Shown here one piece after another: positions 3,785 through 17,784 of a stretch of 18,399 bases of DNA (positions within the stretch are counted from its first letter, which is position 1; each line of letters begins with the position of its first letter). Below the pieces are notes generated by a model that had not been told where the DNA came from, searched no databases, and was given only the letters and a program-made list of their open reading frames with translations. The position numbers were made by a program, and so were the translations under genes. Source of the DNA: Candidatus Heimdallarchaeota archaeon. GTDB taxonomy: Archaea; Asgardarchaeota; Heimdallarchaeia; JABLTI01. The stretch covers positions 1 through 18,399 of the forward strand of contig JAUWKS010000062.1 in assembly GCA_030614005.1 (NCBI GenBank), given 5' to 3'.

Positions 3785-3843
3785 ATAAATTGACTAGAAA
3801 ATAGACGAAAAAAGAGAAAAAAAATTTAGTGTGTTGTATTCGC

Positions 3844-6063
3844 ATGGTACGTATTAAAAATCCCGACGAGATTCGAACAATGGTCAAATCCCATCCTATG
3901 GATCAGCGTCGTGTCTTCAGTATTGCCGCCCACATTGATCACGGCAAGACCACTACGAGCGATTATTTGCTTCGTCGTGCTGGTCTTATGAGTGATCAAG
4001 ATGCTGGCACTAAGTTGATGACTGACTCTGATGAGGAGGAGCAAGAGCGTGGTATAACTATTTTTACCAGTGTTGTTCTTCTTAGTTACGAGCACCAGGG
4101 CAAGGACTATCTTTTTGAGATCAATGATACTCCTGGTCACATTAGTTTTACTGGTGAGGTTAGTCGTGCTTTACGAGGTAGTGATGGTGCTATTATTTTA
4201 GTTGATGCTTTAGAGGGTTTGATGACTCAGACTATTACTAACATTCAGTTGGCTGTTGGCAGTGAGATGTGCAAGCCTGTTTTGTTCATTAACAAGATTG
4301 ATCGTTTGATCAGTGAGTTGAAGCTTCCTGCTAACAAGGTTTTTGAGAAGGTTGATACTATTATCACTCAAGTTAACGAGCAGATTAAAAAGTTCGCTCC
4401 TCCTGAGTTCAAGAAGAAGTGGCAAGTTTCTTTTGCTAAGAACAGTGTTGCTATTGGCAGTGCTAAGGATGGTTGGGCTTTCACTCTTGAGATTCTCAAG
4501 GATGCTGGTCATACTAATCCTGACATTGTTTTTGAGAAGTATGCTGAGGATGACCGGCAATGGCTCCGTGATAACCTTCATTTAGAGGATGCTTTGCTTC
4601 GTATGGTTATTAATCATTTACCCAATCCTGCTGAAGCTCAAAAGTATAAGATCCCTCATATTTGGAGTGGTGACATTGACTCCCCTGAAGGTCAATCTTT
4701 AATTAACTGTGACCCTGATGGTCCTTTATTAGGTATGATTACTAAAGTTTTCATTGATCCTAAGAGCAAGCGTCCTACTTTGATTGGTCGTGTTTTCAGT
4801 GGCACTATTCGTTCTGGTATGGATATTGAGCTCATTGGTCAGAAGCGCAAGGTTCCTATCAAGCGTTTAGGTGTTATGGAGATCACTGATATCCTTGATT
4901 GTGATGAGATTCCTGCTGGCAATCTTTTTGCTATGTTCGGTTTCATTGCTCCCAGTGGTGAGTCCTTCCGTGAGCCTGGTACTAATTATGCCGGCTTTGA
5001 AGAGATCAGTTATGCTGCTGAACCTGTTGTCAGTCGTGCTATTGAAGCTGTTGACCCTCAAGATTTAGCCAAGCTTGGTGATGTTGTTAGTAAATGGATT
5101 ATGGCTGATCCTACTGCTACTTTCCGTCATGACAAGGAGAGCAACAAGTATGTTCTCTCTGGTATTGATCCTCTTCAGATTGAGATTTTGACTAAGCGTA
5201 TTAACGAGCAGATCAAGATCAACATCAATGAGCCTATTATTGTTTATCGTGAGCGCATTAACCAGACTGGTAGTGTTGTTCATTCCAAGTCCCCCAACGG
5301 TCACAACCGTTTGAAGCTCTACATTGAGCCTTTAGATGATAAAGCTGTTGCTCTTATCAAGAGTGGTGCTATCAATATGGATCAAGCCGATAAAGTTCGT
5401 GCTGGTGTTCTTCGTGATAAAGCCGGTTGGGATGCTAAATTTGCTCGTAAGATTTGGGCTATGGAAGGTCAGAATATGATCATTGATGCCAGTTCTGGTG
5501 TCCAGCGTATGGATCGTATTAAGCAATATGTCATTCAAATTTTCAAGGACTTTACTTACTCTGCTACTGTTGCTAAAGAGCCTACTCTTGGTCTCAAGGT
5601 TGTTATTACAGATGCTACTATTCACACTGACCCCGCTCATACTGGTTTCTCTGAAATCCTTGGTATGACCACTGCTGCGATGAACATTTCCTTCCTCACT
5701 GCTAATCCCCATATCTATGAGCCTATACTCTCTGTTGATATTAAAACCCCCAAAGAGTATATGGGTGCCGTTATGGGTCTTATCAGTCAACACCGAGGTC
5801 GCGTTGAGAACACTGTCGACGAAGGTGAGCAAATCCGTGTTGTCGGTGTTTTGCCCACTGCTGAAACTTTAGGTGATTTTGCTGACAAGATTCGCAGTGC
5901 TACTTCTGGTCGCAGTTTCTGGGGTTATCAGTTCAAAGCTTTTGAGCAAATACCTTCCAATATGGAAGTTGATATTATCATTGAAATCCGCACTCGTAAA
6001 GGTTTGAGTCCTGAAGTACCTGTTCCTGATAATTGGTCCCGATTTGTTTACAAACGGCAATAG
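3844..6063 (+). CDS. fusA: Archaeal elongation factor 2 family GTPase, probably a divergent EF-2 paralog
   Basis: G1 AHIDHGKTT, G2 ERGITI, G3 DTPGH, G4 NKID, GSA; domain IV KSPNGHNRL; C-terminal IRTRKGL. ATG 3844 (MVRIK) preferred over the GTG at 3829. Diphthamide loop reads HTDPAHTGFSE. Confidence 0.93.
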   Translation: MVRIKNPDEIRTMVKSHPMDQRRVFSIAAHIDHGKTTTSDYLLRRAGLMSDQDAGTKLMTDSDEEEQERGITIFTSVVLLSYEHQGKDYLFEINDTPGHISFTGEVSRALRGSDGAIILVDALEGLMTQTITNIQLAVGSEMCKPVLFINKIDRLISELKLPANKVFEKVDTIITQVNEQIKKFAPPEFKKKWQVSFAKNSVAIGSAKDGWAFTLEILKDAGHTNPDIVFEKYAEDDRQWLRDNLHLEDALLRMVINHLPNPAEAQKYKIPHIWSGDIDSPEGQSLINCDPDGPLLGMITKVFIDPKSKRPTLIGRVFSGTIRSGMDIELIGQKRKVPIKRLGVMEITDILDCDEIPAGNLFAMFGFIAPSGESFREPGTNYAGFEEISYAAEPVVSRAIEAVDPQDLAKLGDVVSKWIMADPTATFRHDKESNKYVLSGIDPLQIEILTKRINEQIKININEPIIVYRERINQTGSVVHSKSPNGHNRLKLYIEPLDDKAVALIKSGAINMDQADKVRAGVLRDKAGWDAKFARKIWAMEGQNMIIDASSGVQRMDRIKQYVIQIFKDFTYSATVAKEPTLGLKVVITDATIHTDPAHTGFSEILGMTTAAMNISFLTANPHIYEPILSVDIKTPKEYMGAVMGLISQHRGRVENTVDEGEQIRVVGVLPTAETLGDFADKIRSATSGRSFWGYQFKAFEQIPSNMEVDIIIEIRTRKGLSPEVPVPDNWSRFVYKRQ

Positions 6064-6120
6064 GCTTTTGGTTTTTTTCGAGAGATTTTTCTCTCTCATT
6101 TCCTCTTTCTTTTTTGTTTT
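5941..6120 (+). repeat. Left copy of a ~180-bp direct repeat (EF-2 last 40 codons, stop and terminator)
   Basis: Aligns without gaps to 13801-13980 (offset 7,860). Manual count: 94/123 nt identical over the coding part; perfect 44-bp core at 6047-6090 = 13907-13950. Confidence 0.95.
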
Positions 6121-6124
6121 TCTT
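6066..6124. terminator. T-rich terminator region with a short GAGAG/CTCTC hairpin between convergent EF-2 and ABC ATPase genes
   Basis: TTTTGGTTTTTTTCGAGAGATTTTTCTCTCTC followed by long pyrimidine runs immediately after the EF-2 TAG. Confidence 0.6.
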
Positions 6125-7783
6125 TTATTTTTCTTTTCGTTTCTTTGTTACAACTAGCCCATCTTTGACTATTTTTCCATCTACTAATTCTATTGCTCGA
6201 GTTTTTTCTCTTATCATTGTTATATTATGTGTTGCAATGATTGTTGTTTGAGCTGTCTCTTTATTCATTTTGTATATTTGATCTGCTGTTTGTTCTACCA
6301 ATTCCGAATCAAGATTTGCTGTTGGTTCATCCAGTACCAATATTTTTGGTGTCCCATTGTTTGCCATTGCCAACATTGCTCTTTGTAGCTCTCCTCCTGA
6401 TATTTCCATCGGGTAGTTATTTTGTTTGTGTGCTATTTGAAACGTTTCTAGCAATGTTTTCTTTTCGTTTTTGGTTGTCTCTTTTTTCTCTTTCTTCTTG
6501 GAGTATATTTCTTTCAAATAGAGATTTTCTCTCACAGTTAGATATGGGTGCATATTTCCTTGTTGTGATACTATTCCAAACTCTTCTCTTCTTACTGCTG
6601 CTCTTTCCACATCTGTTTTTTCGCTAAAATTCTCTCCCAGGATGGTTATCTTTCCTTCTGTGCATGGCTCCATACCTGTTATTACTTTTAGGAGGGTTGT
6701 TTTCCCTGAACCACTTGGTCCGAGAATAAAGAGCAATTCTCCTTCATTGATTTCTAGTTCTATCCCTGCTAATGCTTTTACTTCCCCTTTCTTATACAGG
6801 TATGTTTTTGCTACATTCTCTAATTTAATTGCTTTTTTCGCGTTTTTGTAATAGTCTTTTGGCAGTGGTTCTAGTAGCAATTGTTTTCTCTGCTCTTTGT
6901 ATTCCGGTAATTTCACTTTTTTTGGCGGCTTTTTCTCTGGATGGCCAAGAGTTATCGAGCCTTTTTTCGTTACCTTAAATTCCAAGTTTCTTTCTAGTTG
7001 TAAGGTTTCAAATACTAGATCTGGCAGTCTAGTATGTTTTGTTTGATCAATATAGCTTTTCAGATATATCGGGAATGAGCTTCTTTGTTTTCTTTCTTCT
7101 TCGCTCAGCACGGTTGATATCCGTCCATCCCGTATTTCATAGGTCTTATCTACTCCTTCTAAGAATCTGGAGTCATGAGTTACTACAATTACTGTTGTAT
7201 CGTACACTTCTGCTATTTGTTTCAGTAATTGTTTTACATTCTTGGTGTTCTCACTGTCTAGCTGTCCTGTTGGTTCATCACACAATAATAAGGGTGTTTT
7301 CTTTGCTAACGCACAAGCAATTGCAACTCGAGTCATCTCTCCTCCTGATAATGGTTTCACCAATCTATTTTCTAAATGACTGATACCTAAATCAGTCATT
7401 ATTTTCATTCTTTTCTTTCCTGTTGTTGGTGTATCCCCATATCTGAGGGTATAGGCAAATTGTAGATTATCTTTCACTGTTGCATCTAAGAATAAAGTTC
7501 GTTCTGGAAATTGGTCCACAAAGCCTATTATTTTCAGTCTGTAATTGCTCAAATTCTCAGGAGTGATTTTTTCCAAGCGGTACCCTGCTACGATTGCTTC
7601 TCCACTTGATATTGTTTCAATTCCACCCAAGATATTTATCAGTGTTGTTTTTCCTGAGCCGCTTGGTCCTACAATTGAAATCAACTCACCCTCCTCTACC
7701 ACTAATTCGCACCCTCGTAAAGCAGGTATTTTTGTTCCGAGGGAACTTTCGTATATTTTTATCAAGTCAATGCATTCTATCAT
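6125..7783 (-). CDS. ABC transporter ATP-binding protein with two fused LolD/MacB-type ATPase domains and an AbrB-like linker (552 aa)
   Basis: Two Walker A GPSGSGKTT motifs, signatures LSGGE and ISGGE, Walker B LLCDEPT and LVLDEPT, H-loops VVTH and IATH. Start set at ATG 7783 (MIECIDL), preceded by AGGAG overlapping the upstream gene's stop. Confidence 0.9.
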   Translation of the reverse strand: MIECIDLIKIYESSLGTKIPALRGCELVVEEGELISIVGPSGSGKTTLINILGGIETISSGEAIVAGYRLEKITPENLSNYRLKIIGFVDQFPERTLFLDATVKDNLQFAYTLRYGDTPTTGKKRMKIMTDLGISHLENRLVKPLSGGEMTRVAIACALAKKTPLLLCDEPTGQLDSENTKNVKQLLKQIAEVYDTTVIVVTHDSRFLEGVDKTYEIRDGRISTVLSEEERKQRSSFPIYLKSYIDQTKHTRLPDLVFETLQLERNLEFKVTKKGSITLGHPEKKPPKKVKLPEYKEQRKQLLLEPLPKDYYKNAKKAIKLENVAKTYLYKKGEVKALAGIELEINEGELLFILGPSGSGKTTLLKVITGMEPCTEGKITILGENFSEKTDVERAAVRREEFGIVSQQGNMHPYLTVRENLYLKEIYSKKKEKKETTKNEKKTLLETFQIAHKQNNYPMEISGGELQRAMLAMANNGTPKILVLDEPTANLDSELVEQTADQIYKMNKETAQTTIIATHNITMIREKTRAIELVDGKIVKDGLVVTKKRKEK

Positions 7784-7788
7784 TTTTC

Positions 7789-10698
7789 TTACTCCTGTTT
7801 TATTGGTCTGTATTGGTTTATTGGTCGTATTAGTGCTATACTCCAAATTCCATTTATCGCTAGAAATTCCATTAGCGTTATTATAACTAGTAACCACCAA
7901 GGTACGCAAAGAGCGAATTGATTATACACAAACAATTTCACTACTAGGTACTTGTCTACTAATTGTAGTACAGTAGTTGCCAATCCAATTGAGATACTGA
8001 TAGGTATAATAGTTATCAACAGAATTTCTATAGTGAATCCCCACCAGATTTGTTTTCTATTTGCTCCTAATCTATACTGAGTTTCGACTATTTTCATTCT
8101 TTGTTGAAAGATTATCTTTGAGGTAAACAAACTATAGAATACCAGCACAAAAACTGTCAGCGCAGTTGTTATTTGCAATAAAAGCAGAATAAAATTATTG
8201 TAAGTATCTAACGCTGGTCTGGTATTCTCTTCATCTAGAGTAAACTGTAATTGATAGGTTTCTTTGAGATCTTCTTTGATTGGTTGTATTTCCTCTTCGG
8301 CTGAGATTTTCATCAAAAGAAAACTACTTTTTGTTACTGTGATGTCTTTTGCAGTATATGCTAATTCTTTTGCAGTGTTATAGTTTGTTACTAGACTATA
8401 GGTTACTAATCGATTATTTGACAAAATATCTTTATCTTGCAATGGCAGTAATGGAAAGTATTCAAAATAGCTGACATATGTTAAAGCGAATTGGTAATAG
8501 GTGGAACTTAGTTGTGAGTTATAGAGCGTAGTGTTCTTATCATAATTATTCTTTTTTGCATAGTTTTCACTCATCAGATAGCTATTATCGGTTTCTAACG
8601 CACTAATATGTTCCAGAGAATAGCTTACTTGTCCTAATTTTGTGTAATCTATTGCTTGGCAAAACTGCTCTGGATTGTGTATTCCCAAGATATGAATGGT
8701 ATAATCAGTAATGTAAGTTGTTTCTACAACACCTAATGTGTAGCTGAATTTATAGAGCGTAACTTCTGTTGCTACTTCAATGTTTTCCCGTAAACTGAGC
8801 TCTGTCAATATCGTCTCATTTGTAGTCCAATCCATTACTACTAAATCAGAACAACCATTTGCTAGATTTGATTCCAAAATGTGGTGATCTTCATATGATT
8901 TGCTAATTACTGCTCCAGGTATAATACATAATAGTGAAACTAGAAGAACAAAAATGAACCTTTTATAATCCCTATAATTTGCTGAGAAATTTTTCAATGA
9001 GAGTGTTACCAAGTTTTTCTTCCAGAGCCAAACCTTGTCGCCCAGAAAAGCAATCCCTCTCGTAATTATTCTTGAGATGAAGTAAAAAATCGAACAACTT
9101 AGAAGAATAATTCCAACGAATAGCAAGGAAACAAAGATCATTAGGTTTGATAGGTAAAATGAATAGGTATCTACTAAAATGAACCCCATGAATTGCAGGA
9201 GGAAGATTCCTAGAATACCTAGGGATGTGGTCAGTATTCCCGGGAACAAAACCTTACATTCTGGATAGGCTAAAAGCTTTGATGCTATCTTCTGGTGTAA
9301 TTTTACTGGTTCACTCACAGGAATGAATGCTGTTTTTTTCATCAGCGCTTTTTCGGTTAAATACCCACCTAAGAATAAAAAGAGGGTGAATGAACAAACC
9401 GAAAACCAATAGAGTGGTAGCACTAATCCTCCAATAAAACTGGATGGTTCCACTTGATACTTTTGTACTGATGTGAGGATAATTCCCATGATTATTCCTA
9501 TGAAGAAACCAGTTACAAAGCTTGCACCAGTTGTTATTATTCCTTCAAATATGAGTACTTTTTTCATTGTTTTATTTTTTATCCCATATTTTTTCAGAAT
9601 TGCAAATGTTGTTTGTAGTTTTTGGGCATCTATATTGAATGATTCCAGTGCGGTAAAGAATATCAATGATAAAATTGGTAGACTGATAGCTATTATTCGA
9701 ATCGTTTCTCGTGTCCAGTAATTGTTAAATGAAAATAGTTTTTTTAGAAGAGCGCTCCCCCAAGTAAAAGCACCATATCTGATAGTTGTTATCCCATACT
9801 CATAGACAAAATCACCAGCTACTTTGTTAATTTTCCATTCCAGTTGACTTTGGTATTTGAACATATTTCGATAATTCATTACAGACCAATCATAGCTAAA
9901 ATCCACTACTATAGCAAAACCAAGACTGGTATATGGATGTTGCTTCACTGCTTCAACAAAGAGATTAGCAGTTGTGAAGAATTGATGTGTAACACTTACT
10001 GGTAGATATTTCTTCCAGTTTAGCACATCAATTGATTTATTGTAGAGAATGAATTCGTTTGTTAGGTTTTCAATGATTCCAACAACAGTATAATTTTGAG
10101 AGTATCTTCTACTATATTTGTTTACAGATAATGAAAAATTATCGCCAATAGTAGGATTTGTCTCTGAAACTCCTTCTCTGAAATAGAGGAGTTCACTTTC
10201 ATTATTTGGCATTCTACCTTCCTGTAAACAATTATTCAGTAATTCATTGGTATTATCATCTAGAAAATTTAATCCATAAGCTGGTGCTCCTTCTGCAGGA
10301 TAAAGTCTTAATGCTATTAATCCAGTCGTGCTAGTAATCGTGTTTTCTGGGAGAATAGTATAGTACTGATATTTATATTTAGATATAATTATTTCAAGGA
10401 TGTTTCTTGTTAGATTTAATTGCTCAACAGCTAGGTGGCTGGAGTAATGTTCTTCTGAAATACTATATTCTTGATCATTCAACCAGTTAGTATTTTCTTT
10501 TGAAAAATTTTGGTATAGATCTATTCTATAACTATTCCATACTAAAATTATTGAAGTAAATATAGCAAAGAAAACCATTCCTGTGAGAATATAAAGTAAA
10601 ATTCTTCTCTTCCCTACTTTCAGAAACATTTTGGTTATTGTTTTCATAGATATTGGATGTGTGTGTCTGAGTGATTTTCTTTCGTAATTTGATTTCAT
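7789..10698 (-). CDS. FtsX/MacB-like ABC exporter permease (duplicated architecture, 969 aa)
   Basis: N-terminal TM, large extracytoplasmic domain (LQEGRMPNNESE, YTVVGII), three TMs, then a repeat of that layout; coupling-helix-like ILKKYGI and YRLGA; in an operon with the ABC ATPase. Confidence 0.8.
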   Translation of the reverse strand: MKSNYERKSLRHTHPISMKTITKMFLKVGKRRILLYILTGMVFFAIFTSIILVWNSYRIDLYQNFSKENTNWLNDQEYSISEEHYSSHLAVEQLNLTRNILEIIISKYKYQYYTILPENTITSTTGLIALRLYPAEGAPAYGLNFLDDNTNELLNNCLQEGRMPNNESELLYFREGVSETNPTIGDNFSLSVNKYSRRYSQNYTVVGIIENLTNEFILYNKSIDVLNWKKYLPVSVTHQFFTTANLFVEAVKQHPYTSLGFAIVVDFSYDWSVMNYRNMFKYQSQLEWKINKVAGDFVYEYGITTIRYGAFTWGSALLKKLFSFNNYWTRETIRIIAISLPILSLIFFTALESFNIDAQKLQTTFAILKKYGIKNKTMKKVLIFEGIITTGASFVTGFFIGIIMGIILTSVQKYQVEPSSFIGGLVLPLYWFSVCSFTLFLFLGGYLTEKALMKKTAFIPVSEPVKLHQKIASKLLAYPECKVLFPGILTTSLGILGIFLLQFMGFILVDTYSFYLSNLMIFVSLLFVGIILLSCSIFYFISRIITRGIAFLGDKVWLWKKNLVTLSLKNFSANYRDYKRFIFVLLVSLLCIIPGAVISKSYEDHHILESNLANGCSDLVVMDWTTNETILTELSLRENIEVATEVTLYKFSYTLGVVETTYITDYTIHILGIHNPEQFCQAIDYTKLGQVSYSLEHISALETDNSYLMSENYAKKNNYDKNTTLYNSQLSSTYYQFALTYVSYFEYFPLLPLQDKDILSNNRLVTYSLVTNYNTAKELAYTAKDITVTKSSFLLMKISAEEEIQPIKEDLKETYQLQFTLDEENTRPALDTYNNFILLLLQITTALTVFVLVFYSLFTSKIIFQQRMKIVETQYRLGANRKQIWWGFTIEILLITIIPISISIGLATTVLQLVDKYLVVKLFVYNQFALCVPWWLLVIITLMEFLAINGIWSIALIRPINQYRPIKQE

Positions 10699-10714
10699 TT
10701 TGTATCCCCCATTA

Positions 10715-13612
10715 TTACTCCACTTTTATTGGTCTATAGTTTTTCACTTGTGGTATCAGACTTGCTGCATTTCCCCCTACTATCAAACATTCGCTTAGAA
10801 GTGTAATCAATATCAATAACCACCAAGGTAACCAGAGATTAAATGAATGATATATTTGCTGAATAGGTATCAATTGCTTGAGAAGCAATAAGAATAGACA
10901 GCTAGCCATTGTGGATATCAGAACAGGACCAGCTGTGATCAAAATTATCTCTAGTACCATTCCTTGCCAAATTTGATTTCTATCTATTCCCAATCTATAT
11001 TCTGTTTCGATTATTCTTTTTCGCCGGTTGTAAATAGTTACTGCAGTAATATACCCGTAGAAGAAGATTATACTAGCAACAATAACAGAGCAAATTATTG
11101 AAAAAATACTTGTGAAAGAATTAGTAGTTTGATCAAGTTCTTTTTCTACAGATTCTGTCGTAATTATTGATGACCAATTATAGATGTTAGTTATTTCACT
11201 TGTGATTGAAGTGAGATTTCCTTCAGCTGTTGTCCTAAGTAGCAAGTAGTCTCTTTCAGAGTAAGTGGCACTTGTTGTAACACTCTCGAGTAGTTGAACT
11301 GTTTGCAAAGATGTTACCAATTGAAATGAAATTGATTGTTGGAATGGTGTTGAGGCATCTGCCACCAAGGGTAGTAGTGGGAAATAATCAAATGATTTAA
11401 CGTATTCTAGTGGATATCTTTCAATCGTTTCTCCGAAAAAGGAGTTATATAAAATTCTATCTGGATCATCATAACCATAGTTCTTCACATGTTCCTTGTT
11501 CATCAAATAAGTTAAATTTCTTGATAATTTTTCAATATCTTCTTCGGAGTATTGTATCTTCCCTAATCTAGACAAATCAACCACTTGATTAAAATGCTTA
11601 CAATTATGTATCGCTAGAATTAAAATCGTATATATCACGTTATGCCCAAAGTCAAAACTGGCTTCAAAATTGATAGTTACAATGGTTACTGTAGTTGTTT
11701 GTTGAACACCAACTATTTGCTCTATTTCTCTTTGTGGTAAAGTATAGTTATCCCAATTTTCTATTAGCAAATCGGCACATCCAACACTCATATCTCTTTC
11801 AAGAGCTATTTGCCTATTCATCGAAGGAGGAAGTATTGCACCTGGCAATAAACCTATACTTGCGATTAATGTAATGACAATTACTCTTTGATAATTTTCT
11901 TTATTTGTTATAAGATTCTTCAATGCATAACTTAGTCTATTTTTATTTTCATACCATCTTCTTTCTCCGATTTTATTGAATTGAGCAAGGATGCATCTTG
12001 CTACTATATAGAACAAACCATTTATTGTGACCAATGCACCTACGATAATGAATACCCATGCAATTAAGGTTATCAAACTTGACAAATCATAAGAAATTGA
12101 AGTTGCAGTTAGTCGTTCAAGCGGGACTATTGTTGCCAATAAAACTCCAGGCAGAAGCATAGTGATTCCGGTTGCTAATAAAACTAGTTCATGTGGAGTC
12201 AACCATACTCTTTTTTTCTTTGAGAATGCTTTTGTTTCTGGTTTCGATTTCATTACTGAGGTTTTCCTCACTATTCGATTTTCTGCGATTATCATTCCTA
12301 TGAACAAAACAAACGTTATCAGTGCCAATATTAGAAGATAGAATGGTTCGAGAAGATACTCAAGAATCGTTTGAATGGTTACTCTAAGGCCTATTATTTT
12401 AGTTAATGCTAATCCCACGAAAGTTCCAACAATAATACCAACAATTAAACTTAGAAGTACTACAAATACACCTTTTATAAGAAGGAGGTTTTTTATTGTT
12501 CTATTTGATAGTCCTTGTAGTTTCATTTTAAAGGTTATATTTTCAAACTCTGTTTGCCCACTTTTGTTTATTTCAATACTGACAAAGAAGAGTAAGAGGA
12601 GTGCAGGTGTCAATAGAAGAATGCTCTTTATTGTTTCGTATATCCAGAAGTAATTAAAACCTTGGAGTGTAGAGAATATATCTTTACACAAAGTGATACT
12701 CTCACTTTGCTCAGAGGAGAAATGAACATCTGTTTGTAATAGATCCTGATGTTGAGATAAATACATCGATATTCTTTGAACATTTATTGCCGAATAGTCA
12801 TACATAAAATCGACAATCATTGCTCTACCGGCATTTATCACTGGGAACGAATTGATTGTTGAGAAGAAATCTTCATTGTTAGTATAAAATATTTCATTAG
12901 CAGAAAAGATATATCGATACTCGTTAAGATTTTCTTGCCAATTCACACAATTCGATGAATAGCCTGATGATTCTAAATGTGGTACAAGAGGACCTAGTAT
13001 TCCTACTATTGTAAAATTCTTTGCAAAGGTATTTGGCACCCTTAATGTTCGGATGGAAATTTCATCATTTAGGTTATAGGTTGAGATATTTTGTTTTTGA
13101 AAATAAAGTATTTCTGCATTATTTGCTGGCAATCGTCCAGTAACTAAACTCTGGTTTAGTATTGGTAGAAGTTCAGCAGTTGTAGTTCTAAACTCAGTAT
13201 GGTGAAAATCGGTTTGTGTAACTAGATTTGAGTAAAATTCTATTGACATCATTCCTATTATCTTCTCTGAAATGACGTTTGGATATAACTCATTCATGGT
13301 TTCTTGTATTTCTAATGTTAAATCTTCTAAATAGTTCTGATCATATGAAGGGACATAACCGTCTTTAACTGTACTATAAAAAGCACTAATTTGATGCTCT
13401 TCATTCTCTTCTACGAAATCCAAAAAGCTTACAGTTTTCGTGGAATTCCAAGTAGTTAAAAATGATGTCAAAAGAAAAATACAGAATAAAGTAATAACTA
13501 CTGAAAGAAGAAACCTTCTCAAATCATTTTTTATTAGAATCGTAAGTTGATTTTTGATACGATGCAAGGGTTTCTTTTTATTATCACTACTACCATTTGA
13601 ACTATTTATCAT
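10715..13612 (-). CDS. FtsX/MacB-like ABC exporter permease (965 aa), paralog of 7789-10698
   Basis: Same layout (LVTGRLPANNAE, FTIVGIL, MKLQGL, YRLGI); C-termini YRPIKVE vs YRPIKQE; shared GCxDL and FxYFPLLP motifs. Confidence 0.8.
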   Translation of the reverse strand: MINSSNGSSDNKKKPLHRIKNQLTILIKNDLRRFLLSVVITLFCIFLLTSFLTTWNSTKTVSFLDFVEENEEHQISAFYSTVKDGYVPSYDQNYLEDLTLEIQETMNELYPNVISEKIIGMMSIEFYSNLVTQTDFHHTEFRTTTAELLPILNQSLVTGRLPANNAEILYFQKQNISTYNLNDEISIRTLRVPNTFAKNFTIVGILGPLVPHLESSGYSSNCVNWQENLNEYRYIFSANEIFYTNNEDFFSTINSFPVINAGRAMIVDFMYDYSAINVQRISMYLSQHQDLLQTDVHFSSEQSESITLCKDIFSTLQGFNYFWIYETIKSILLLTPALLLLFFVSIEINKSGQTEFENITFKMKLQGLSNRTIKNLLLIKGVFVVLLSLIVGIIVGTFVGLALTKIIGLRVTIQTILEYLLEPFYLLILALITFVLFIGMIIAENRIVRKTSVMKSKPETKAFSKKKRVWLTPHELVLLATGITMLLPGVLLATIVPLERLTATSISYDLSSLITLIAWVFIIVGALVTINGLFYIVARCILAQFNKIGERRWYENKNRLSYALKNLITNKENYQRVIVITLIASIGLLPGAILPPSMNRQIALERDMSVGCADLLIENWDNYTLPQREIEQIVGVQQTTTVTIVTINFEASFDFGHNVIYTILILAIHNCKHFNQVVDLSRLGKIQYSEEDIEKLSRNLTYLMNKEHVKNYGYDDPDRILYNSFFGETIERYPLEYVKSFDYFPLLPLVADASTPFQQSISFQLVTSLQTVQLLESVTTSATYSERDYLLLRTTAEGNLTSITSEITNIYNWSSIITTESVEKELDQTTNSFTSIFSIICSVIVASIIFFYGYITAVTIYNRRKRIIETEYRLGIDRNQIWQGMVLEIILITAGPVLISTMASCLFLLLLKQLIPIQQIYHSFNLWLPWWLLILITLLSECLIVGGNAASLIPQVKNYRPIKVE

Positions 13613-13800
13613 ATGTCCACTTCCCTTCTAAAACCCACTTGTATAAACTGTACCTACTGTAAAATAGGTTCTTATACTATTCAATAATTCAATGTAAAAC
13701 TATTTGTCTTCAAGTGTTCATATCATGTTTTCATAAATTAATTAAAATCTAGTTATTTGAAGAAATTTTCTTGCTTATCCACTATTTGAGTATTATTTGT

Positions 13801-13923
13801 TTTGCTCCTTTACCATCAAGCTTAGAAGTCGATGCTATCATTGAAATTCGCAAGCGAAAAGGTTTGACTGCCGAAGTTCCCGTTCCCGAGAATTGGGCTC
13901 GTTTTATTTACAAACGGCAATAG
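13801..13923 (+). pseudogene. Orphan 3' fragment of an EF-2 gene (40 codons plus TAG)
   Basis: Translates to FAPLPSSLEVDAIIEIRKRKGLTAEVPVPENWARFIYKRQ*, 28/40 aa identical to the EF-2 C-terminus. Homology stops at about 13801 and an in-frame TAG lies at 13750-13752. Confidence 0.9.
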
Positions 13924-13980
13924 GCTTTTGGTTTTTTTCGAGAGATTTTTTTCTCTCCTTTTCTCTTTCTTTTTTTTTTC
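13801..13980 (+). repeat. Right copy of the ~180-bp EF-2 3'-end direct repeat
   Basis: See 5941-6120; includes the identical TTTACAAACGGCAATAGGCTTTTGGTTTTTTTCGAGAGATTTTT core. Confidence 0.95.
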
Positions 13981-14107
13981 TTTCGTCTAAATTTAGCTAA
14001 ATGGTCTTTTATTCTGAGCGAAAAAAGCTTAAAATTGCTTTAATCTTACAATTGTTTTTATAGTCTATTTAACATATTTTCGTATAGAATTTGTGGAGAT
14101 ACAAATT

Positions 14108-14341
14108 ATGTCAAAAGAAAAATCAACTTTTCCTCTCGCAACCATTGAGAGGCTTATGAAAGAACATCTACCAAACAACAAAATTGGTAAGAGCGCGAAA
14201 ATAGAGTTTGGTAATTCACTTGCTGAAGTAGCCAAACTTGCTTGTGAAAAAACTCTTGTCTATACCAATGATGCTAAGAGAAAAACAGTCAAGGCTGAAG
14301 ATGTTCAATCAGCTTTCGAATCAATTGGCGATACAGGCTAA
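14108..14341 (+). CDS. Archaeal histone / histone-fold protein (77 aa)
   Basis: FPLATIERLMK (alpha1) and AKRKTVKAEDV (L2-alpha3) histone-fold signatures. ATG 14108 has GGAG at 14095-14098. Confidence 0.9.
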   Translation: MSKEKSTFPLATIERLMKEHLPNNKIGKSAKIEFGNSLAEVAKLACEKTLVYTNDAKRKTVKAEDVQSAFESIGDTG

Positions 14342-14426
14342 TTACTTGTCTAGAACTCATCTAATGCAGGGTGAAAAATAACACAGGTCTTTGTCTAACG
14401 ACAATAGTTAAATAATCAAATAATTG

Positions 14427-14462
14427 GGGAGAAAAATTTTCTCTCTTTCTTTTTTATTTTTA
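14427..14462 (+). terminator. GAGA/TCTC hairpin followed by a T-tract downstream of the histone gene
   Basis: GGGAGAAAAATTTTCTCTCTTTCTTTTTTATTTTT, similar to the EF-2 terminator. Confidence 0.5.
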
Positions 14463-14791
14463 GTCAAATGGTCGTTCCTCATATTTTATCTTTTCAACCT
14501 AAATTGTGCTTTTCTTCTTTCCAAAAAAAATTGCCTCTAAAATATCTCTTATAAGGAGTAAAGAGCAATGATAGCTACGAATTTGAGGGTAAGAAACGCT
14601 TGTTATATTTTCTTCAACTCTTATAACAAAATTATAACCTCTACCCAAAAAAACGTTTATTGGGACGGTGGACTGGATTCCCACTGTCCGTGAATTTTTC
14701 TTGTGTTAGCATATGCTGATCAAAACGTTACAGAATATAGCAATTGAAAAAAGAAAGAAAAAAGGCAAAAAAAAGTTCGTTAATTGATTTA

Positions 14792-14950
14792 TTAGATAGA
14801 TTCGAAATCGCCTTTGCCGGCGCCACACACAGGGCAGACCCAATCATCGGGGACATCTTCCCATTTTGTTCCGGGAGCAACACCTGATTCTGGATCGCCT
14901 TCATCTTCGTCATAAATGTAGGCACAAATTGTGCACTCGTATTTTGCCAT
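14792..14950 (-). CDS. rub: Rubredoxin, 52 aa ([52 protein letters not shown])
   Basis: Manual translation, absent from the ORF track. Two CxxC motifs (CTIC, CPVC) and the canonical YD..GDP..G..PGT.WED.PDDW core. Confidence 0.97.
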
Positions 14951-15141
14951 TGGTTTTTTTCTCCAATATTCTTTTGCAAGTAATTGTTATTTTCTTTCGT
15001 ATTAAACAATTCTTACATTTTGTTCACTTGCACCCAATATAAAAATATGCTCTCTTCATTTCTGAGACACGTTATCAATAAAAAATTAGAAATACAAGAG
15101 CGAAATATTGCTCGCATCTTGCAGTTGATTGTTTAGTTGGT

Positions 15142-15687
15142 TCATTCTATCCAGATTTTTTCGGTAAATGCTTGTGCGGTTTGATAGTACTCCTTTGCAT
15201 TTCGTCGCACTTTAATTGCAAAATGTCGCACAGAATTGGAATTTTTATCCACGAAACGAAGTGTGATAATAGTTTTCTTCAAACAACTTAGAACTATAAT
15301 CAGCACACCAAATATAAGAATAATAATACCAAGTCCCAATGGCGCACCATCTCCATCATTATTAAATAAATCAGCTGCAAAAACAATTATTCCAAAAATA
15401 CCTGGTAAGGATATTAGTGAACCAATTATAATGCCCAGTAGATTAAAAGCTCGAAAACTTACTGATGAACCTCTAAAATCCTCTTTCATAATGTCTAAGT
15501 GAAGATCTCCGGCATTAATCGTTCTTTGTACTTCTATAGCTATTTTCTCTTCATCAACGTTTATGTCTACATTTTTCATTCGTTGTAAGTGTGCGAAACG
15601 CAATAGGAAATTCATACCCATATTTGTTCTTTCATGTGGTGAAAAAATCGATGATCTATTTACTATTGTATATTTAGTGTCTTTCAT
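15142..15687 (-). CDS. Uncharacterised membrane protein with two TM helices (181 aa); paralog of 15725-16270
   Basis: Two hydrophobic segments flanked by soluble beta-rich regions; about 71% identical to its neighbour (128/181 by manual count). Confidence 0.8.
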   Translation of the reverse strand: MKDTKYTIVNRSSIFSPHERTNMGMNFLLRFAHLQRMKNVDINVDEEKIAIEVQRTINAGDLHLDIMKEDFRGSSVSFRAFNLLGIIIGSLISLPGIFGIIVFAADLFNNDGDGAPLGLGIIILIFGVLIIVLSCLKKTIITLRFVDKNSNSVRHFAIKVRRNAKEYYQTAQAFTEKIWIE

Positions 15688-15724: not shown

Positions 15725-16270
15725 CTATTTGCTCCAGAGTTTTTCTGTAAATTCCTTTGCTGTTTGATAGTACTCCTTTGCATTTCGTCGTACACTTATT
15801 GCAAAATATCGAACTGAATTGGAATTTTTATCCACGAAGCGTAGTGAGATTATTGTTCTCCTGAGTAAGCTAGTAATTAGAATTGGCAATCCAAACACAA
15901 GAAAAATAATACCAATTCCCATTGGTGTAAAATCACCGTCATTCTGAAATAAATCAGCTGCATAAACAATTATTGCAAAAAGACCTGTTAATGTTAATAG
16001 TGAACCAATTATAATTCCTATTATGTTAAAATTTCGATAGCTTACTGATGAACCTCTGAAATCTTCTTTTTTAATATCTAAGTGGAAATCCCCAGCCAAA
16101 ATTGTTCTATGACCTTCTATTGCAATTTTCTCTTCATCAACGTTTATTTCCGTATGTTTCATTCGCTGCAAGTGAGCTAACCGTAATATGAAATTCATGC
16201 CTAAGGCAATTCTTTCATATGGAGTAAAAATCGTTGATCTATCATTTATTGAATATTTGATATCTTTCAT
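15725..16270 (-). CDS. Uncharacterised membrane protein with two TM helices (181 aa); paralog of 15142-15687
   Basis: Start moved to ATG 16270 (MKDIK), which gives the same length and N-terminus as the paralog (MKDTK). Confidence 0.8.
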   Translation of the reverse strand: MKDIKYSINDRSTIFTPYERIALGMNFILRLAHLQRMKHTEINVDEEKIAIEGHRTILAGDFHLDIKKEDFRGSSVSYRNFNIIGIIIGSLLTLTGLFAIIVYAADLFQNDGDFTPMGIGIIFLVFGLPILITSLLRRTIISLRFVDKNSNSVRYFAISVRRNAKEYYQTAKEFTEKLWSK

Positions 16271-16466
16271 TTCTTTACGCCTTAGTTTTTGTAAATTCAA
16301 TTTTGAACCATTAATAATAAAAGTTTGTTCAAGACTTTAATCACCTTAATATTCTGCCATACTATTTAAGCTTCTTGGAAAGGTCATTCATTACATTTTA
16401 ACAAAAGATACTCAATAACTAATTTCTTTTACTCTAGGAGAGGTTTTTTGTCGTTTCATTTAGTCC

Positions 16467-16474
16467 TTTATAAA
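16467..16474 (+). promoter_or_regulatory. Candidate TATA box for the glycosyltransferase gene
   Basis: TTTATAAA about 56 nt upstream of the GTG start at 16531. Confidence 0.35.
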
Positions 16475-16530
16475 GTAAATCTCCCAGTGTTCTATCGAGT
16501 CCAGAACAGAGTAGTAAAGTTTCCTGGAGA

Positions 16531-17784
16531 GTGAGTATTAATTTGAAAATCTGTATGATCACTGACACTTATCATCCTGGTTTCGATGGCATTGTTCGCT
16601 ATCTAGATTATTTAATTCCACAGTTACTTCAGAAAGGTCATGAAGTTTCAGTTGTTTGTCCCTGGTTTAAAGGAAATCAACATTACTCTTCTCCTGAAGA
16701 AGGTTTTGAAATCATTCGCACAACCACTACTCGTTTTCGCTCAAATGCGTATTATTGGGCTATTCCAGATTGGCGTCTCATCAAAGCTATTATTCAATCT
16801 GATTTTATTGTTCTTCATTCTCTTATGCCTCTAGGACTGGCTGGAGGATTGGTTGCAAAGCTTTTCCGAAAAAAGATTGGTTTTTGGTGTCACCATGATG
16901 AGCGCGTTATCTTCAACGATATTTTACAACTTCCATCTTTTCTTGTTCGACTTTTTTACAAGTTCATAGAAAAGTTTTATACAAAAATAGTTGATGTGTT
17001 CTTTCATGCTACGGAGCGCTTCCGCCGCAAACTTGTTTATTTTGGGGCTCCAAGCGATAAGACACATCACACTCCTTTTGCTATAAATACCAGTAAATTC
17101 CATTCTGAACCTGAAATTGATTTACGTAAGCGATATAGTATTCCCTCTGATGCCATCATTACTTGCTATCTTGGTCGTCTTTCCGTTGAGAAGAATGTAG
17201 ACAATATACTCCTTGCACTTGATGCTGCTATGGAGGATGTTCCAAATCTTTTTGCACTAATTGTTGGTGGTGGTCCAGATGAAGAAAAGTATCTTGCATT
17301 ACCAAGGAAGAATAACGAACGATTTATTTTCACCGGGTTCATTCCTGAGAATGAACTACAAAGTCATTATGCTACTAGTGATATTTTTGTCACTCCCACT
17401 CTTAATGAGTCCTCTTGCTTTACAGTTTTTGAATCTATGACGTGCAACGTTCCTGTTATCACATCTGCAATGGATCATGATCCGGATATAATTGATAGAG
17501 AAAATGCCCTTCTTGTTTATGATGTACTTAATCCATCTGAAATTAAAGAAAATTTGCTTCGACTTGCTACGAATGAATCATTTCGTAAGCGTATTGCAAT
17601 GAATGGGCAGAAACTCATTTCATCCCGCACCTGGGAAAACCATTCAGAGCGATTTGTTTATGGCATGAATACCGTTTTCTCTGCAAATGTCAAGCACAAG
17701 AAATCAGTTGCTAGAGTTGCTACCATTCCGAAAAATCACTCCAAGCGTAAATTAGGTCGCATTAAGAAATCCATTGGATTGTAG
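16531..17784 (+). CDS. Glycosyltransferase family 4 (GT-B fold, retaining)
   Basis: N-terminal KICMITDTYHPGFDG...KGHEV; YLGRLSVEKN; IVGGGP; FTGFIP; E-x7-E motif ESSCFTVFE; GTG start after GGAGA. Confidence 0.9.
   Translation: MSINLKICMITDTYHPGFDGIVRYLDYLIPQLLQKGHEVSVVCPWFKGNQHYSSPEEGFEIIRTTTTRFRSNAYYWAIPDWRLIKAIIQSDFIVLHSLMPLGLAGGLVAKLFRKKIGFWCHHDERVIFNDILQLPSFLVRLFYKFIEKFYTKIVDVFFHATERFRRKLVYFGAPSDKTHHTPFAINTSKFHSEPEIDLRKRYSIPSDAIITCYLGRLSVEKNVDNILLALDAAMEDVPNLFALIVGGGPDEEKYLALPRKNNERFIFTGFIPENELQSHYATSDIFVTPTLNESSCFTVFESMTCNVPVITSAMDHDPDIIDRENALLVYDVLNPSEIKENLLRLATNESFRKRIAMNGQKLISSRTWENHSERFVYGMNTVFSANVKHKKSVARVATIPKNHSKRKLGRIKKSIGL

What the first reader, a model, noticed from the sequence alone, without database searches (positions are those of the whole stretch)
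5941..13980. EF-2 3' end is duplicated around a 7.86-kb cargo: an integration hotspot with a spare C-terminus
Seen: the last 40 codons, stop and terminator of EF-2 recur exactly 7,860 bp downstream. The coding part is 76% identical in DNA and 28/40 in protein, with mostly synonymous or conservative changes and no stop or frameshift, followed by a perfect 44-bp core spanning the stop codon. Known: some integrative elements target protein-coding 3' ends and supply a replacement end (for example e14 at E. coli icd). Inference: the ABC cassette entered at the EF-2 3' end, and one copy comes from a related lineage's allele. Recombination within the core would excise the island and place EF-2 next to the histone gene; crossover further 5' would also swap the C-terminus. 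No recombinase is encoded between the repeats, so it would need a trans-acting integrase or homologous recombination.
Basis: partly seen in the sequence, partly recalled or inferred. Interest (0 to 1): 0.75.

Follow-up and report, generated by a model that had tools for sequence, protein, structure and literature searches.

The report
Duplicated EF-2 end around ABC operon
In a Heimdall-type Asgard archaeon the last 41 codons and terminator of the essential elongation factor 2 gene occur twice, 7.9 kb apart, around an ABC-transporter operon; the repeat is real, but it looks like a recombination scar at a locus whose gene content varies, not an active integrase-driven island.

Summary
Window 5940-6119 recurs at 13800-13979 (spacing 7860): the coding part is 76% identical, 28/40 residues match, and 44 nt are perfect (6047-6090 = 13907-13950). 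Copy B has no EF-2 body.

The usual gene order in this group is EF-2, terminator hairpin, histone, rubredoxin, glycosyltransferase. Only this genome and a ~90%-identical sister lineage carry an ABC operon (ATPase plus two FtsX permeases) between the EF-2 terminator and the truncated copy B, which still abuts the histone gene. The closest congener (G010) shows the unoccupied order. So, probably, does a 574-nt contig (L126) whose histone DNA is 99% identical.

The island holds no recombinase, TIRs or tRNA. The 90%-complete genome has one tyrosine recombinase, on another contig. The "perfect core" is not a conserved att core: the sister's copy A has a different, longer spacer, like G010 and L126. 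I read the core as a later gene-conversion tract, with the original crossover at the conserved GAGAGA/TCTCTC hairpin.

Best reading (0.5): a Campbell-type, homology-driven insertion, or its reverse. Rivals are an in-situ rearrangement, since homologous cassettes sit nearby in other lineages, and a recombinase acting in trans.

Earlier scan notes describe similar EF-G/EF-2 gene-end duplications on other DNA. Interest is moderate to low.

The parts
3829..6063 (+). EF-2 gene (744-aa ORF), the only full EF-2 in the genome
   Evidence: Pfam GTP_EFTU, EFG_III, EFG_IV and EFG_C. The own-genome search finds this gene, a 32%-identical paralog on C9 and the fragment B.
5940..6119 (+). Repeat copy A: the last 40 codons, the stop and the terminator region of the functional EF-2
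6047..6090 (+). 44-nt stretch identical to 13907-13950, read as a gene-conversion tract
   Evidence: The sister's copy A' has a different, longer spacer here, as do G010 and L126.
6080..6097 (+). Terminator-like hairpin A (GAGAGA, loop, TCTCTC) followed by a T-rich tract
   Evidence: A hairpin in this place is present in all 19 distinct lineages examined.
6125..7909 (-). ABC ATPase with two nucleotide-binding domains. The form on record is 552 aa, about 6125-7783. Its stop codon lies 5 nt from the end of repeat A.
   Evidence: Pfam ABC_tran x2; P0007
7789..10698 (-). FtsX-type permease 1 (969 aa)
   Evidence: Pfam FtsX
10715..13612 (-). FtsX-type permease 2 (965 aa)
   Evidence: Pfam FtsX. Closest homologs are 88%, 57%, 55% and 48% identical.
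13613..13708 (.). Upstream region of the operon. Collinearity with the cassette of L066/L067 ends here.
13709..13800 (.). 92-nt filler of unknown origin between the operon's upstream region and tail B. About 50 nt of it are 96% conserved in the sister lineage.
13800..13979 (+). Repeat copy B: a truncated EF-2 3' end (41 codons, stop at 13921-13923) plus terminator, with no gene body
13940..13957 (+). Terminator-like hairpin B. Its loop and 3' side match L126 exactly and, across hairpin and loop, G010.
14108..14341 (+). Histone-fold gene, the normal downstream neighbour of EF-2 in this group
   Evidence: Pfam CBFD_NFYB_HMF. EF-2 next to histone in L071, L072, L121, L123-125, L127-134 and G010.
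14531..14701 (.). Conserved non-annotated element X. Collinearity with L066, L067 and L064 resumes here.
14728..14886 (-). Rubredoxin gene (about 52 aa), part of the conserved backbone
   Evidence: tblastn. Pfam Rubredoxin on the called homologs.

Best explanation
The repeat is a recombination scar, not the att pair of a self-mobile element.

The backbone order in this group of Heimdall-type Asgard archaea is EF-2, terminator hairpin, histone, rubredoxin, glycosyltransferase. In the common ancestor of this genome and a ~90%-identical sister lineage, a ~7.7-kb stretch recombined with the chromosome at the EF-2 terminator hairpin. That stretch carried an ABC operon together with a copy of an EF-2 3' end and terminator.

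A single reciprocal (Campbell-type) crossover, or transfer of an already formed island by flanking homology, would leave the present structure. Copy A is the resident functional tail joined to the incoming post-hairpin sequence and the ATPase end. Copy B is the incoming truncated tail joined to the resident post-hairpin sequence and the histone gene.

The enzyme was most likely the host's own homologous or short-homology recombination system. Later, in this lineage only, a short gene conversion between the two copies produced the 44-nt perfect stretch. Recombination between the copies would remove the operon and restore EF-2 next to histone, the order seen in relatives.

Shown: the repeat; the truncation of B; both junctions in independent assemblies; the unoccupied order in relatives; the absence of any recombinase in the island; the sister's different spacer.
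Inferred: the crossover point, the gene conversion, the direction of the event and the enzyme.
For: (1) Copy B has no EF-2 body and sits just upstream of the histone gene, as a full EF-2 does in G010, L071, L072, L121, L123-125 and L127-134.
(2) None of 8 congeners nor the sister-genus genome G011 has the cassette at its EF-2 locus. G010 (EF-2 95% aa, 92.6% DNA) has EF-2, 186 nt, then histone.
(3) Segment groupings fit a crossover at the hairpin. Tail A groups with functional tails: 84% to G010 and 85% to L126, with 11 of 15 differences from L126 at third codon positions. Tail B with B' forms its own clade (98/98). The hairpin 3' side and post-hairpin sequence of A match the sister's A'. Those of B match L126, and G010 as far as the hairpin and loop.
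(4) L126 is 99.1% identical in histone DNA and 95% from the hairpin to the ATG, but only 80% (to B) and 85% (to A) in the tail. That is a sharp identity break at the terminator.
(5) The 44-nt core is specific to this genome. The sister's A' has a 28-nt spacer of the type seen in G010 and L126, so the perfect identity arose after the event, which implies the two copies recombine.
(6) There is no recombinase, tRNA or Rfam family in the island or window. The genome has one PF00589 hit, on contig C58, and no PF01867 hit.
(7) The interval from EF-2 to the glycosyltransferase ranges from 0.3 to 10.5 kb with different genes in different lineages.
Against: No donor with a B-type tail was found. B is 69-79% identical to every sampled allele, and its position in the tree is unresolved. 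B's branch is about twice as long as those of functional tails, which also fits a drifting local duplicate.

Homologous cassettes (FtsX 52-62%, ATPase 76% aa) lie next to rubredoxin in L064, L066, L067 and L068 with no histone and no EF-2 tail. Relative to L066/L067 the window carries a clean 822-nt extra block, 13709-14530: filler, tail B, terminator and histone. The moved piece could therefore be the tail-histone block rather than the operon.

The arrangement that either direction of the event requires, EF-2 terminator next to the ATPase without copy B, was not observed in any sequence. L126 is only 574 nt, so its status as an unoccupied site is inferred.
Confidence: 0.5

Rival explanations
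1. In-situ rearrangement. The ABC cassette is an old resident of this neighbourhood. A segmental duplication or duplicative transposition of the block 'EF-2 tail, terminator, histone' (about 0.8 kb), or a tandem duplication followed by deletions, placed a second tail beyond the cassette. Copy B is then a local pseudogene fragment that has drifted since.
For: L066/L067 show the cassette's upstream region and element X as contiguous. The window has an exact 822-nt extra block there, 13709-14530. Cassettes with 52-76% aa identity occupy the same neighbourhood in at least two other lineages. B's branch is about twice as long as those of functional tails, and codon-position bias on it is weak. No donor allele was found.
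Against: Seven of B's nine residue differences from the A/G010 consensus are residues used at that position by other functional EF-2 tails (PLPSSLE, RKRKGL, ENWARF, FIY). B and B' keep the frame with no stop or indel. Substitutions cluster in B's first 36 nt rather than being spread evenly. A tandem-duplication route needs a later deletion ending within about 6 nt of the original breakpoint. No relative shows a second EF-2 or a longer fragment.
Confidence: 0.25
2. Site-specific integration of a mobilisable island that has no integrase of its own (CIME-like, or a decayed casposon-like element). A recombinase encoded elsewhere recognises the EF-2 terminator hairpin as its att core. The element carried an EF-2 3' end as part of attP.
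For: The structure is attL, cargo, attR, with an unoccupied site in relatives. The inferred crossover segment, about 12 nt at a conserved hairpin, is of the size reported for archaeal att sites (median 17 bp in Thaumarchaeota, PMC6563490). The 3'-distal part of aEF-2 is a documented target of thaumarchaeal family-1 casposons (PMC4779613, PMC6563490). The island is present in one close lineage and apparently absent from another.
Against: There is no recombinase in the island and no TIRs. The genome has one PF00589 hit, on another contig, and no PF01867 hit. EF-2-tail DNA occurs nowhere else in the genome, the 40 relatives or the viral contigs. The 44-nt core is not conserved in the sister lineage. 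The duplication was found only in this genome and its sister, although the locus varies in many lineages.
Confidence: 0.15
3. Assembly chimera: contigs of two co-occurring strains were joined through the shared 44-nt stretch.
For: The genome is a MAG of 126 contigs. Several strains or lineages co-occur in the samples. Logan contigs break at the repeat.
Against: The junction of filler and tail B lies outside any repeat, and an independent contig spans it with 0 differences (X3, 13159-14111). The sister lineage has both junctions on separate contigs (L063, L070). The island is covered in runs from three studies.
Confidence: 0.03

Closest known systems
e14 prophage at E. coli icd, and similar islands that integrate into the 3' end of a protein gene and supply a replacement end (my own knowledge, not tested here)
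   Same: Direct repeats made of a gene's 3' end flank the cargo. One copy is a displaced, non-functional fragment with allelic differences, and the gene stays intact.
   Different: e14 encodes its own integrase. Its identical crossover core lies at the 5' edge of the duplicated segment, and the element supplies the new functional end. Here there is no integrase, identity is highest at the 3' edge (stop and terminator), the functional tail appears to be the resident one, and the perfect stretch is a later conversion.
[quoted passage not shown]
   Same: An archaeal host, the same target gene and the same end of that gene. The unoccupied and occupied states are seen in related genomes.
   Different: Casposons carry Cas1 (casposase), PolB and TIRs, and make short target-site duplications. 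None of these is present here, and the repeat is 180 nt and diverged.
Cis-mobilisable elements (CIMEs) and tandem accretion at the fda 3' end in Streptococcus thermophilus (my own knowledge)
   Same: Cargo without an integrase, bounded by att-like direct repeats at the 3' end of a housekeeping gene.
   Different: CIMEs share exact att sites with co-resident ICEs that provide the integrase. No such partner element or conserved core was found here.
Campbell-type or homology-facilitated illegitimate recombination of foreign chromosomal DNA, and recombination scars at variable genomic islets (my own knowledge)
   Same: Diverged homologous segments flank the insert. Identity is mosaic, with a sharp break at the junction. 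No dedicated recombinase is needed. A gene-conversion tract lies between the copies.
   Different: The mechanism was established in bacteria by experiment. Nothing has been measured in Asgard archaea, and the circular or donor intermediate is hypothetical.
Earlier notes of this scan on other DNA: the EF-G 3'-end duplication around xisH-xisI in a cyanobacterium (e1-3815023) and cassettes bounded by repeats of the fusA end in a CPR bacterium (e1-768153)
   Same: The end of a translocase gene (EF-G/EF-2) is duplicated at the borders of inserted cassettes, the enzyme is unknown, and the site is read as a recombination hotspot.
   Different: Those are bacterial, with much shorter or near-identical repeats and small cassettes. 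They are unchecked AI notes and I did not test them.

Membership tests
Integrase-encoding integrative element at a gene 3' end (e14/icd type) | A tyrosine or serine integrase gene inside the element | tested here: not met
   Three ORFs fill 6125-13612 and match only ABC_tran and FtsX. The single PF00589 hit in the genome is on contig C58.
Integrase-encoding integrative element at a gene 3' end (e14/icd type) | Direct repeats (attL/attR) that share an identical core conserved among occupied sites | tested here: not met
   The repeats exist. However, the 44-nt identical stretch is absent from the sister lineage's copy A', which has a 28-nt spacer of the G010/L126 type. Only about 12 nt of the hairpin are shared.
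Integrase-encoding integrative element at a gene 3' end (e14/icd type) | An unoccupied site in relatives | tested here: met
   G010 has EF-2, 186 nt, then histone. L126 has a functional-type tail, the terminator and a histone gene 99% identical in DNA. EF-2 next to histone is seen in more than 10 lineages.
Integrase-encoding integrative element at a gene 3' end (e14/icd type) | An excised circle or empty junction in the same population | tested here: inconclusive
   Only assembled Logan contigs could be laid. No joints were seen, and contigs drop rare variants.
Casposon (family 1, aEF-2 target) | Cas1-type casposase and PolB | tested here: not met
   No such ORF in the island. No PF01867 hit in the genome.
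Casposon (family 1, aEF-2 target) | Terminal inverted repeats and a short target-site duplication | tested here: not met
   No inverted repeat pairs the island's ends. The repeat is 180 nt and 82% identical.
CIME-like island mobilised in trans | A related element that encodes an integrase and uses the same att sequence in the same or related genomes | tested here: not met
   EF-2-tail DNA occurs only at the two sites in the own genome. In 40 relatives the tail part matches only EF-2 loci; the other, weak hits fall in the T-rich tract or the filler. No viral contig holds it.
Homology-driven (Campbell-type or flanking-homology) recombination scar | Flanking repeats are diverged homologs whose segments have different nearest relatives | tested here: met
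   Tail A groups with functional tails, and B with B' forms a separate clade (98/98). Post-hairpin A groups with A', and post-hairpin B with L126; G010 matches B only in the hairpin and loop.
Homology-driven (Campbell-type or flanking-homology) recombination scar | A sharp change of identity to close relatives at the junction | tested here: met
   L126 against the window: 99.1% in histone, 95.3% from the hairpin to the ATG, 79.8% (B) and 84.8% (A) in the tail.
Homology-driven (Campbell-type or flanking-homology) recombination scar | An identified donor arrangement or allele | tested here: not met
   No sampled EF-2 tail is more than 79% identical to B. No sequence shows EF-2 next to the ATPase without copy B.
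Decayed tandem duplication of EF-2 | A second full or longer partial EF-2 copy in this genome or its relatives | tested here: not met
   Only the 41-codon fragment here. A single tail per locus in all relatives and metagenome loci.

The most novel reading that the evidence does not exclude
The conserved GAGAG...CTCTC hairpin just after the EF-2 stop codon is a true recombination site. In Heimdall-type Asgard archaea an enzyme acting in trans would use it to insert and remove gene cassettes that have no integrase, each bringing its own EF-2 3' end. This essential gene's end would then serve as a reusable docking site, as casposons use aEF-2 in Thaumarchaeota, and the EF-2 C-terminus could be swapped between lineages.
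Probability: 0.1. Interest if true: 0.7.

Novelty: new member of a known kind. Interest (0 to 1): 0.35.

Why it matters
It gives a concrete, datable example of how gene content turns over next to an essential gene in the archaeal group closest to eukaryotes. The turnover happens without any recognisable mobile-element machinery. The example includes signs of recombination between lineages (an identity break at the terminator) and of gene conversion between 180-nt repeats that are 82% identical.

If the terminator hairpin proved to be a real recombination site, it would join the aEF-2 target of thaumarchaeal casposons and the EF-G-end cassettes noted elsewhere in this scan, as a wider pattern of translocase gene ends serving as docking sites. 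As it stands, this is an ordinary recombination scar at a variable locus, documented in detail.

Tried and rejected
- Contigs of four runs from three studies were laid on 3800-15000. No joint for an empty site or a circle appeared. Only assembled contigs were available and they break at the repeat, so this says nothing either way.
- Exact scans for a 27-nt piece of the core in genome contigs and metagenome contigs found 0 hits.
- A scan of viral contigs with the EF-2 C-terminal 105 aa found none.
- A scan of genome contigs with an alignment of FtsX2 homologs, meant to recover complete L066- or L064-type loci, found none.
- The gene next to the ATPase in L064 (tail ...PLAINDTLF) was not recognisable in the own genome. 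The DNA of the P0010 contig was not available.
- The origin of the 92-nt filler at 13709-13800 was not found anywhere.
- An ML tree of the 120-nt tails recovers B with B' (98/98), but their placement is a polytomy, so it cannot tell a foreign allele from a drifting duplicate.
- I first read the window's histone (89% DNA identity to L072, 71% to G010) as evidence that the tail-histone block was imported. I dropped this when many lineages showed histones 84-99% identical in protein, which makes G010's histone the outlier.
- Other ABC cassettes of the same family in the genome show no flanking repeats.
- The Rfam and tRNA scans of the window were empty.
Full report
**The window and the observation**

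The window is a whole 18.4-kb contig (C83) of a 3.6-Mb MAG of 126 contigs, about 90% complete. It comes from marine-sediment and cold-seep metagenomes. Source names attached to close protein homologs place it among Heimdall-type Asgard archaea.

The gene order is as follows:
- a NucS-like gene (-), a weak RAMP-like ORF and orf363
- EF-2 (3829-6063, +)
- an ABC ATPase with two nucleotide-binding domains (6125-7909, -)
- two FtsX permeases of about 965 aa (7789-10698 and 10715-13612, -)
- a truncated EF-2 tail (13801-13923, +)
- a histone gene (14108-14341, +)
- a conserved element X and rubredoxin (-)
- two paralogous ORFs of about 185 aa (-)
- a GT4 glycosyltransferase (16531-17784, +)

Window 5940-6119 recurs at 13800-13979, with spacing 7860 and 82% identity. 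The coding part is 75.8% identical, 28/40 residues match, and 44 nt are perfect (6047-6090 = 13907-13950) across the stop codon. Identity drops to 22-32% outside the repeat. The genome holds this DNA only at these two places, and only one full EF-2 plus a 32%-identical paralog. Copy B has no gene body.

**Is the structure real?**

An independent Logan contig (run X3) spans 13159-14111 with no differences. Runs from three studies cover the whole island.

A sister lineage from one public run carries the same structure on two contigs.
- L063 is 90.45% identical to window 7882-13900. It ends inside a tail B' that is in frame and 87% identical to B.
- L070 holds the ATPase (92% aa), a terminator and the end of an EF-2 gene (...WSRFVYKRQ, stop).

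The structure is therefore not an assembly artefact, and it predates the split of two lineages that differ by about 10% in DNA.

**What is normal at this locus?**

In G010, the closest congener (EF-2 95% aa and 92.6% DNA; glycosyltransferase 83% aa), the order is orf363, EF-2, 186 nt, histone, X, rubredoxin, the two ~185-aa ORFs and the glycosyltransferase. There is no cassette.

EF-2, hairpin, histone, rubredoxin and glycosyltransferase lie in that order in many other contigs and MAGs: L071, L072, L121, L123-125 and L127-134. More distant genomes have EF-2 0.3-0.6 kb from the glycosyltransferase (G011, G007/L075), or other genes between them. These include HhH-GPD glycosylase, VWA, Big_7 and CBM9 proteins and unknown ORFs. 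The interval downstream of the EF-2 terminator is thus a spot where gene content varies. The duplicated tail, however, was found only here and in the sister lineage.

**The cassette**

FtsX permeases of this type are highly paralogous in the genus: 7 genes here and up to 11 in relatives. All those found in the species representatives are at most 33% identical to this one.

In wider assemblies the nearest homologs after the sister are 48-57% identical (FtsX2), and for the ATPase 76%. They lie in the same neighbourhood: glycosyltransferase (-), a ~180-aa ORF, rubredoxin, X, FtsX2, FtsX1, ATPase. This is seen in L064, L065 and L068, and in L066 and L067 as far as their contigs run (they end inside FtsX1). 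There is no histone between X and the cassette. In L064, L065 and L068 the gene beyond the ATPase is not EF-2; that side is not covered in L066 and L067.

Relative to L066/L067 the window has a clean 822-nt extra block, 13709-14530. It consists of a 92-nt filler, tail B, the terminator, the histone gene and 190 nt. This is the main reason the direction of the event stays open.

**Which copy is which?**

Tail A behaves as the resident functional end. It is 84% identical to G010's tail, while the gene body is 92.6% identical and identity declines smoothly toward the 3' end.

Tail B is 76-79% identical to A and to G010, and at most 77% identical to every other allele. Its first 45 nt are at most 69% identical to anything sampled. 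B and B' form a well-supported clade (98/98) with a long stem, but where it attaches is unresolved.

Seven of B's nine residue differences from the A/G010 consensus are residues that other functional EF-2 tails use at the same positions. Both B and B' keep the frame. This favours descent from a functional allele of another lineage, but it does not prove it.

**The "perfect core" and the crossover point**

All 19 distinct lineages examined have a hairpin 5-35 nt after the EF-2 stop, followed by a T-rich tract. Within the genus its stem is GAGAG(A/T)...(A/T)CTCTC. The neighbouring genus has a different, compensated stem. The simple terminator scan picks up both copies here. Their folding energies, about -8.4 kcal/mol, are unremarkable against shuffled sequence.

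Taking the region segment by segment:
- The spacer between stop and hairpin is identical in A and B of this genome (GCTTTTGGTTTTTTT).
- The sister's A' has a 28-nt spacer beginning GAACTTTTAGAG. It resembles L126 (GAACTTTAAGA...) and G010.
- The hairpin's 3' side and the post-hairpin sequence group A with A'. They group B with L126, and with G010 across the hairpin and loop.

So the 44-nt identity is specific to this genome. It is best explained as a short gene conversion between the two copies after the event. The segment shared at the original junction is only about 12 nt, (C/T)GAGAGATTTTT.

**L126**

This 574-nt ENA contig is 99.1% identical to the window in histone DNA, 100% over the 43 nt after the histone gene, and 95.3% from the hairpin to the histone ATG. 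Its EF-2 tail, however, is a third allele (...MEVDIIVEIRTRKGLNPEVPVPENWSRFVYKRM, stop), 84.8% identical to A and 79.8% to B. Of its 15 differences from A, 11 fall at third codon positions.

It looks like an unoccupied EF-2-terminator-histone site in a very close relative. It also shows a sharp identity break exactly at the terminator, which means lineages have recombined there. Because the contig is short, the claim that a full EF-2 lies upstream is an inference.

**Mechanism**

Nothing in the island or the window is a recombinase, a tRNA or a known RNA family. No inverted repeat pairs the island's ends. The genome has one PF00589 hit, on contig C58, and no PF01867 hit. EF-2-tail DNA is not carried by any other contig, by any of 40 relatives outside their EF-2 loci, or by any viral contig.

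The geometry is that of a single reciprocal crossover at the terminator, or its reverse, a deletion between the repeats. Copy A is resident tail plus incoming downstream sequence, and copy B is incoming tail plus resident downstream sequence. I therefore commit to a homology or short-homology driven, Campbell-type event, or import of a pre-formed island by flanking homology, at confidence 0.5.

The rivals are:
- an in-situ rearrangement in which the tail-histone block moved and B is a drifting local copy (0.25)
- a trans-acting site-specific recombinase using the hairpin (0.15)
- an assembly chimera (0.03)

**Comparison with what is known**

Integration into the 3'-distal part of protein genes is documented in archaea. 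The aEF-2 gene is the commonest target of thaumarchaeal family-1 casposons (PMC4779613; PMC6563490, which also reports 14 of 68 elements in the 3' ends of protein genes and a median att length of 17 bp).

Described Heimdall mobile elements use other sites: aloposons and integrated viruses use tRNA genes, and Tn7-like elements use nrdD, tRNA or methylase genes (PMC8813620; bioRxiv 10.1101/2025.07.27.667033). None of the defining parts of these families is present here; see the membership table.

Earlier notes from this scan report duplicated EF-G/EF-2 gene ends around cassettes in a cyanobacterium, a CPR bacterium and a DPANN archaeon. They are unchecked, but they suggest the theme recurs.

**Verdict**

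This is a new example of a known kind of structure, a gene-end duplication left by recombination at a variable locus. It has two informative details: the later conversion tract, and the identity break at a conserved terminator hairpin. Interest is 0.35.

Noticed in passing
G000 contig C21 (34,839 nt), outside the window: The first and last 85 nt of this contig are identical, as expected for a circular molecule such as a plasmid or virus binned with the MAG. It carries no EF-2-tail DNA.
   Followed up: partly
G000 contig C10, 14209-14380 and 20933-21107: This is another partial-gene direct repeat. A 175-nt near-terminal piece of a 923-aa gene recurs 6.7 kb downstream at 90% identity, around four genes; the N-termini of two look TPR-like and that of the ORF just beyond the repeat looks like a response-regulator receiver, by eye only (no domain search). 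The duplicated piece does not reach the gene's end.
   Followed up: partly
window 13733-13783: About 50 nt in the filler just upstream of tail B are 96% identical between this genome and the sister lineage, although the surrounding intergenic DNA is only about 79% identical. It may be a promoter or regulator site of the ABC operon. No copy exists elsewhere in the genome.
   Followed up: partly
window 14531-14701: A conserved non-annotated element X lies between the histone and rubredoxin genes. It is shared with G010, L064, L066 and L067 at 70-84% DNA identity. It has no Rfam match and no convincing ORF.
   Followed up: partly
L032 (G010) 16305-16523: G010's histone next to EF-2 is only 57% identical in protein to this window's. 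Histones at the same position in many other lineages are 84-99% identical to it. Either G010's gene has diverged very fast or it has been replaced.
   Followed up: partly
window 15142-15687 and 15725-16300: These are tandem paralogous ORFs of 181 and 191 aa (300 nt at 80% DNA identity) with no Pfam family. One or two copies are present in G010, L064, L066, L073 and L121, and they are absent from several lineages, so they are another variable part of the locus.
   Followed up: partly
window 14426-14446: A terminator-like hairpin after the histone gene uses the same GAGA...TCTC theme as the EF-2 hairpin.
   Followed up: no
The genome search, genus g4: None of the 14 genomes of one genus in the same class matches this EF-2 at E <= 1e-100, although they are up to 99% complete. 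That genus seems to use a clearly different EF-2 type.
   Followed up: no
window 6125-7909 / 7789-10698: The longest ORF of the ATPase (TTG start, 594 aa) overlaps the end of the FtsX1 gene by about 120 nt. The form on record is 552 aa, so the real start is probably at about 7783.
   Followed up: no
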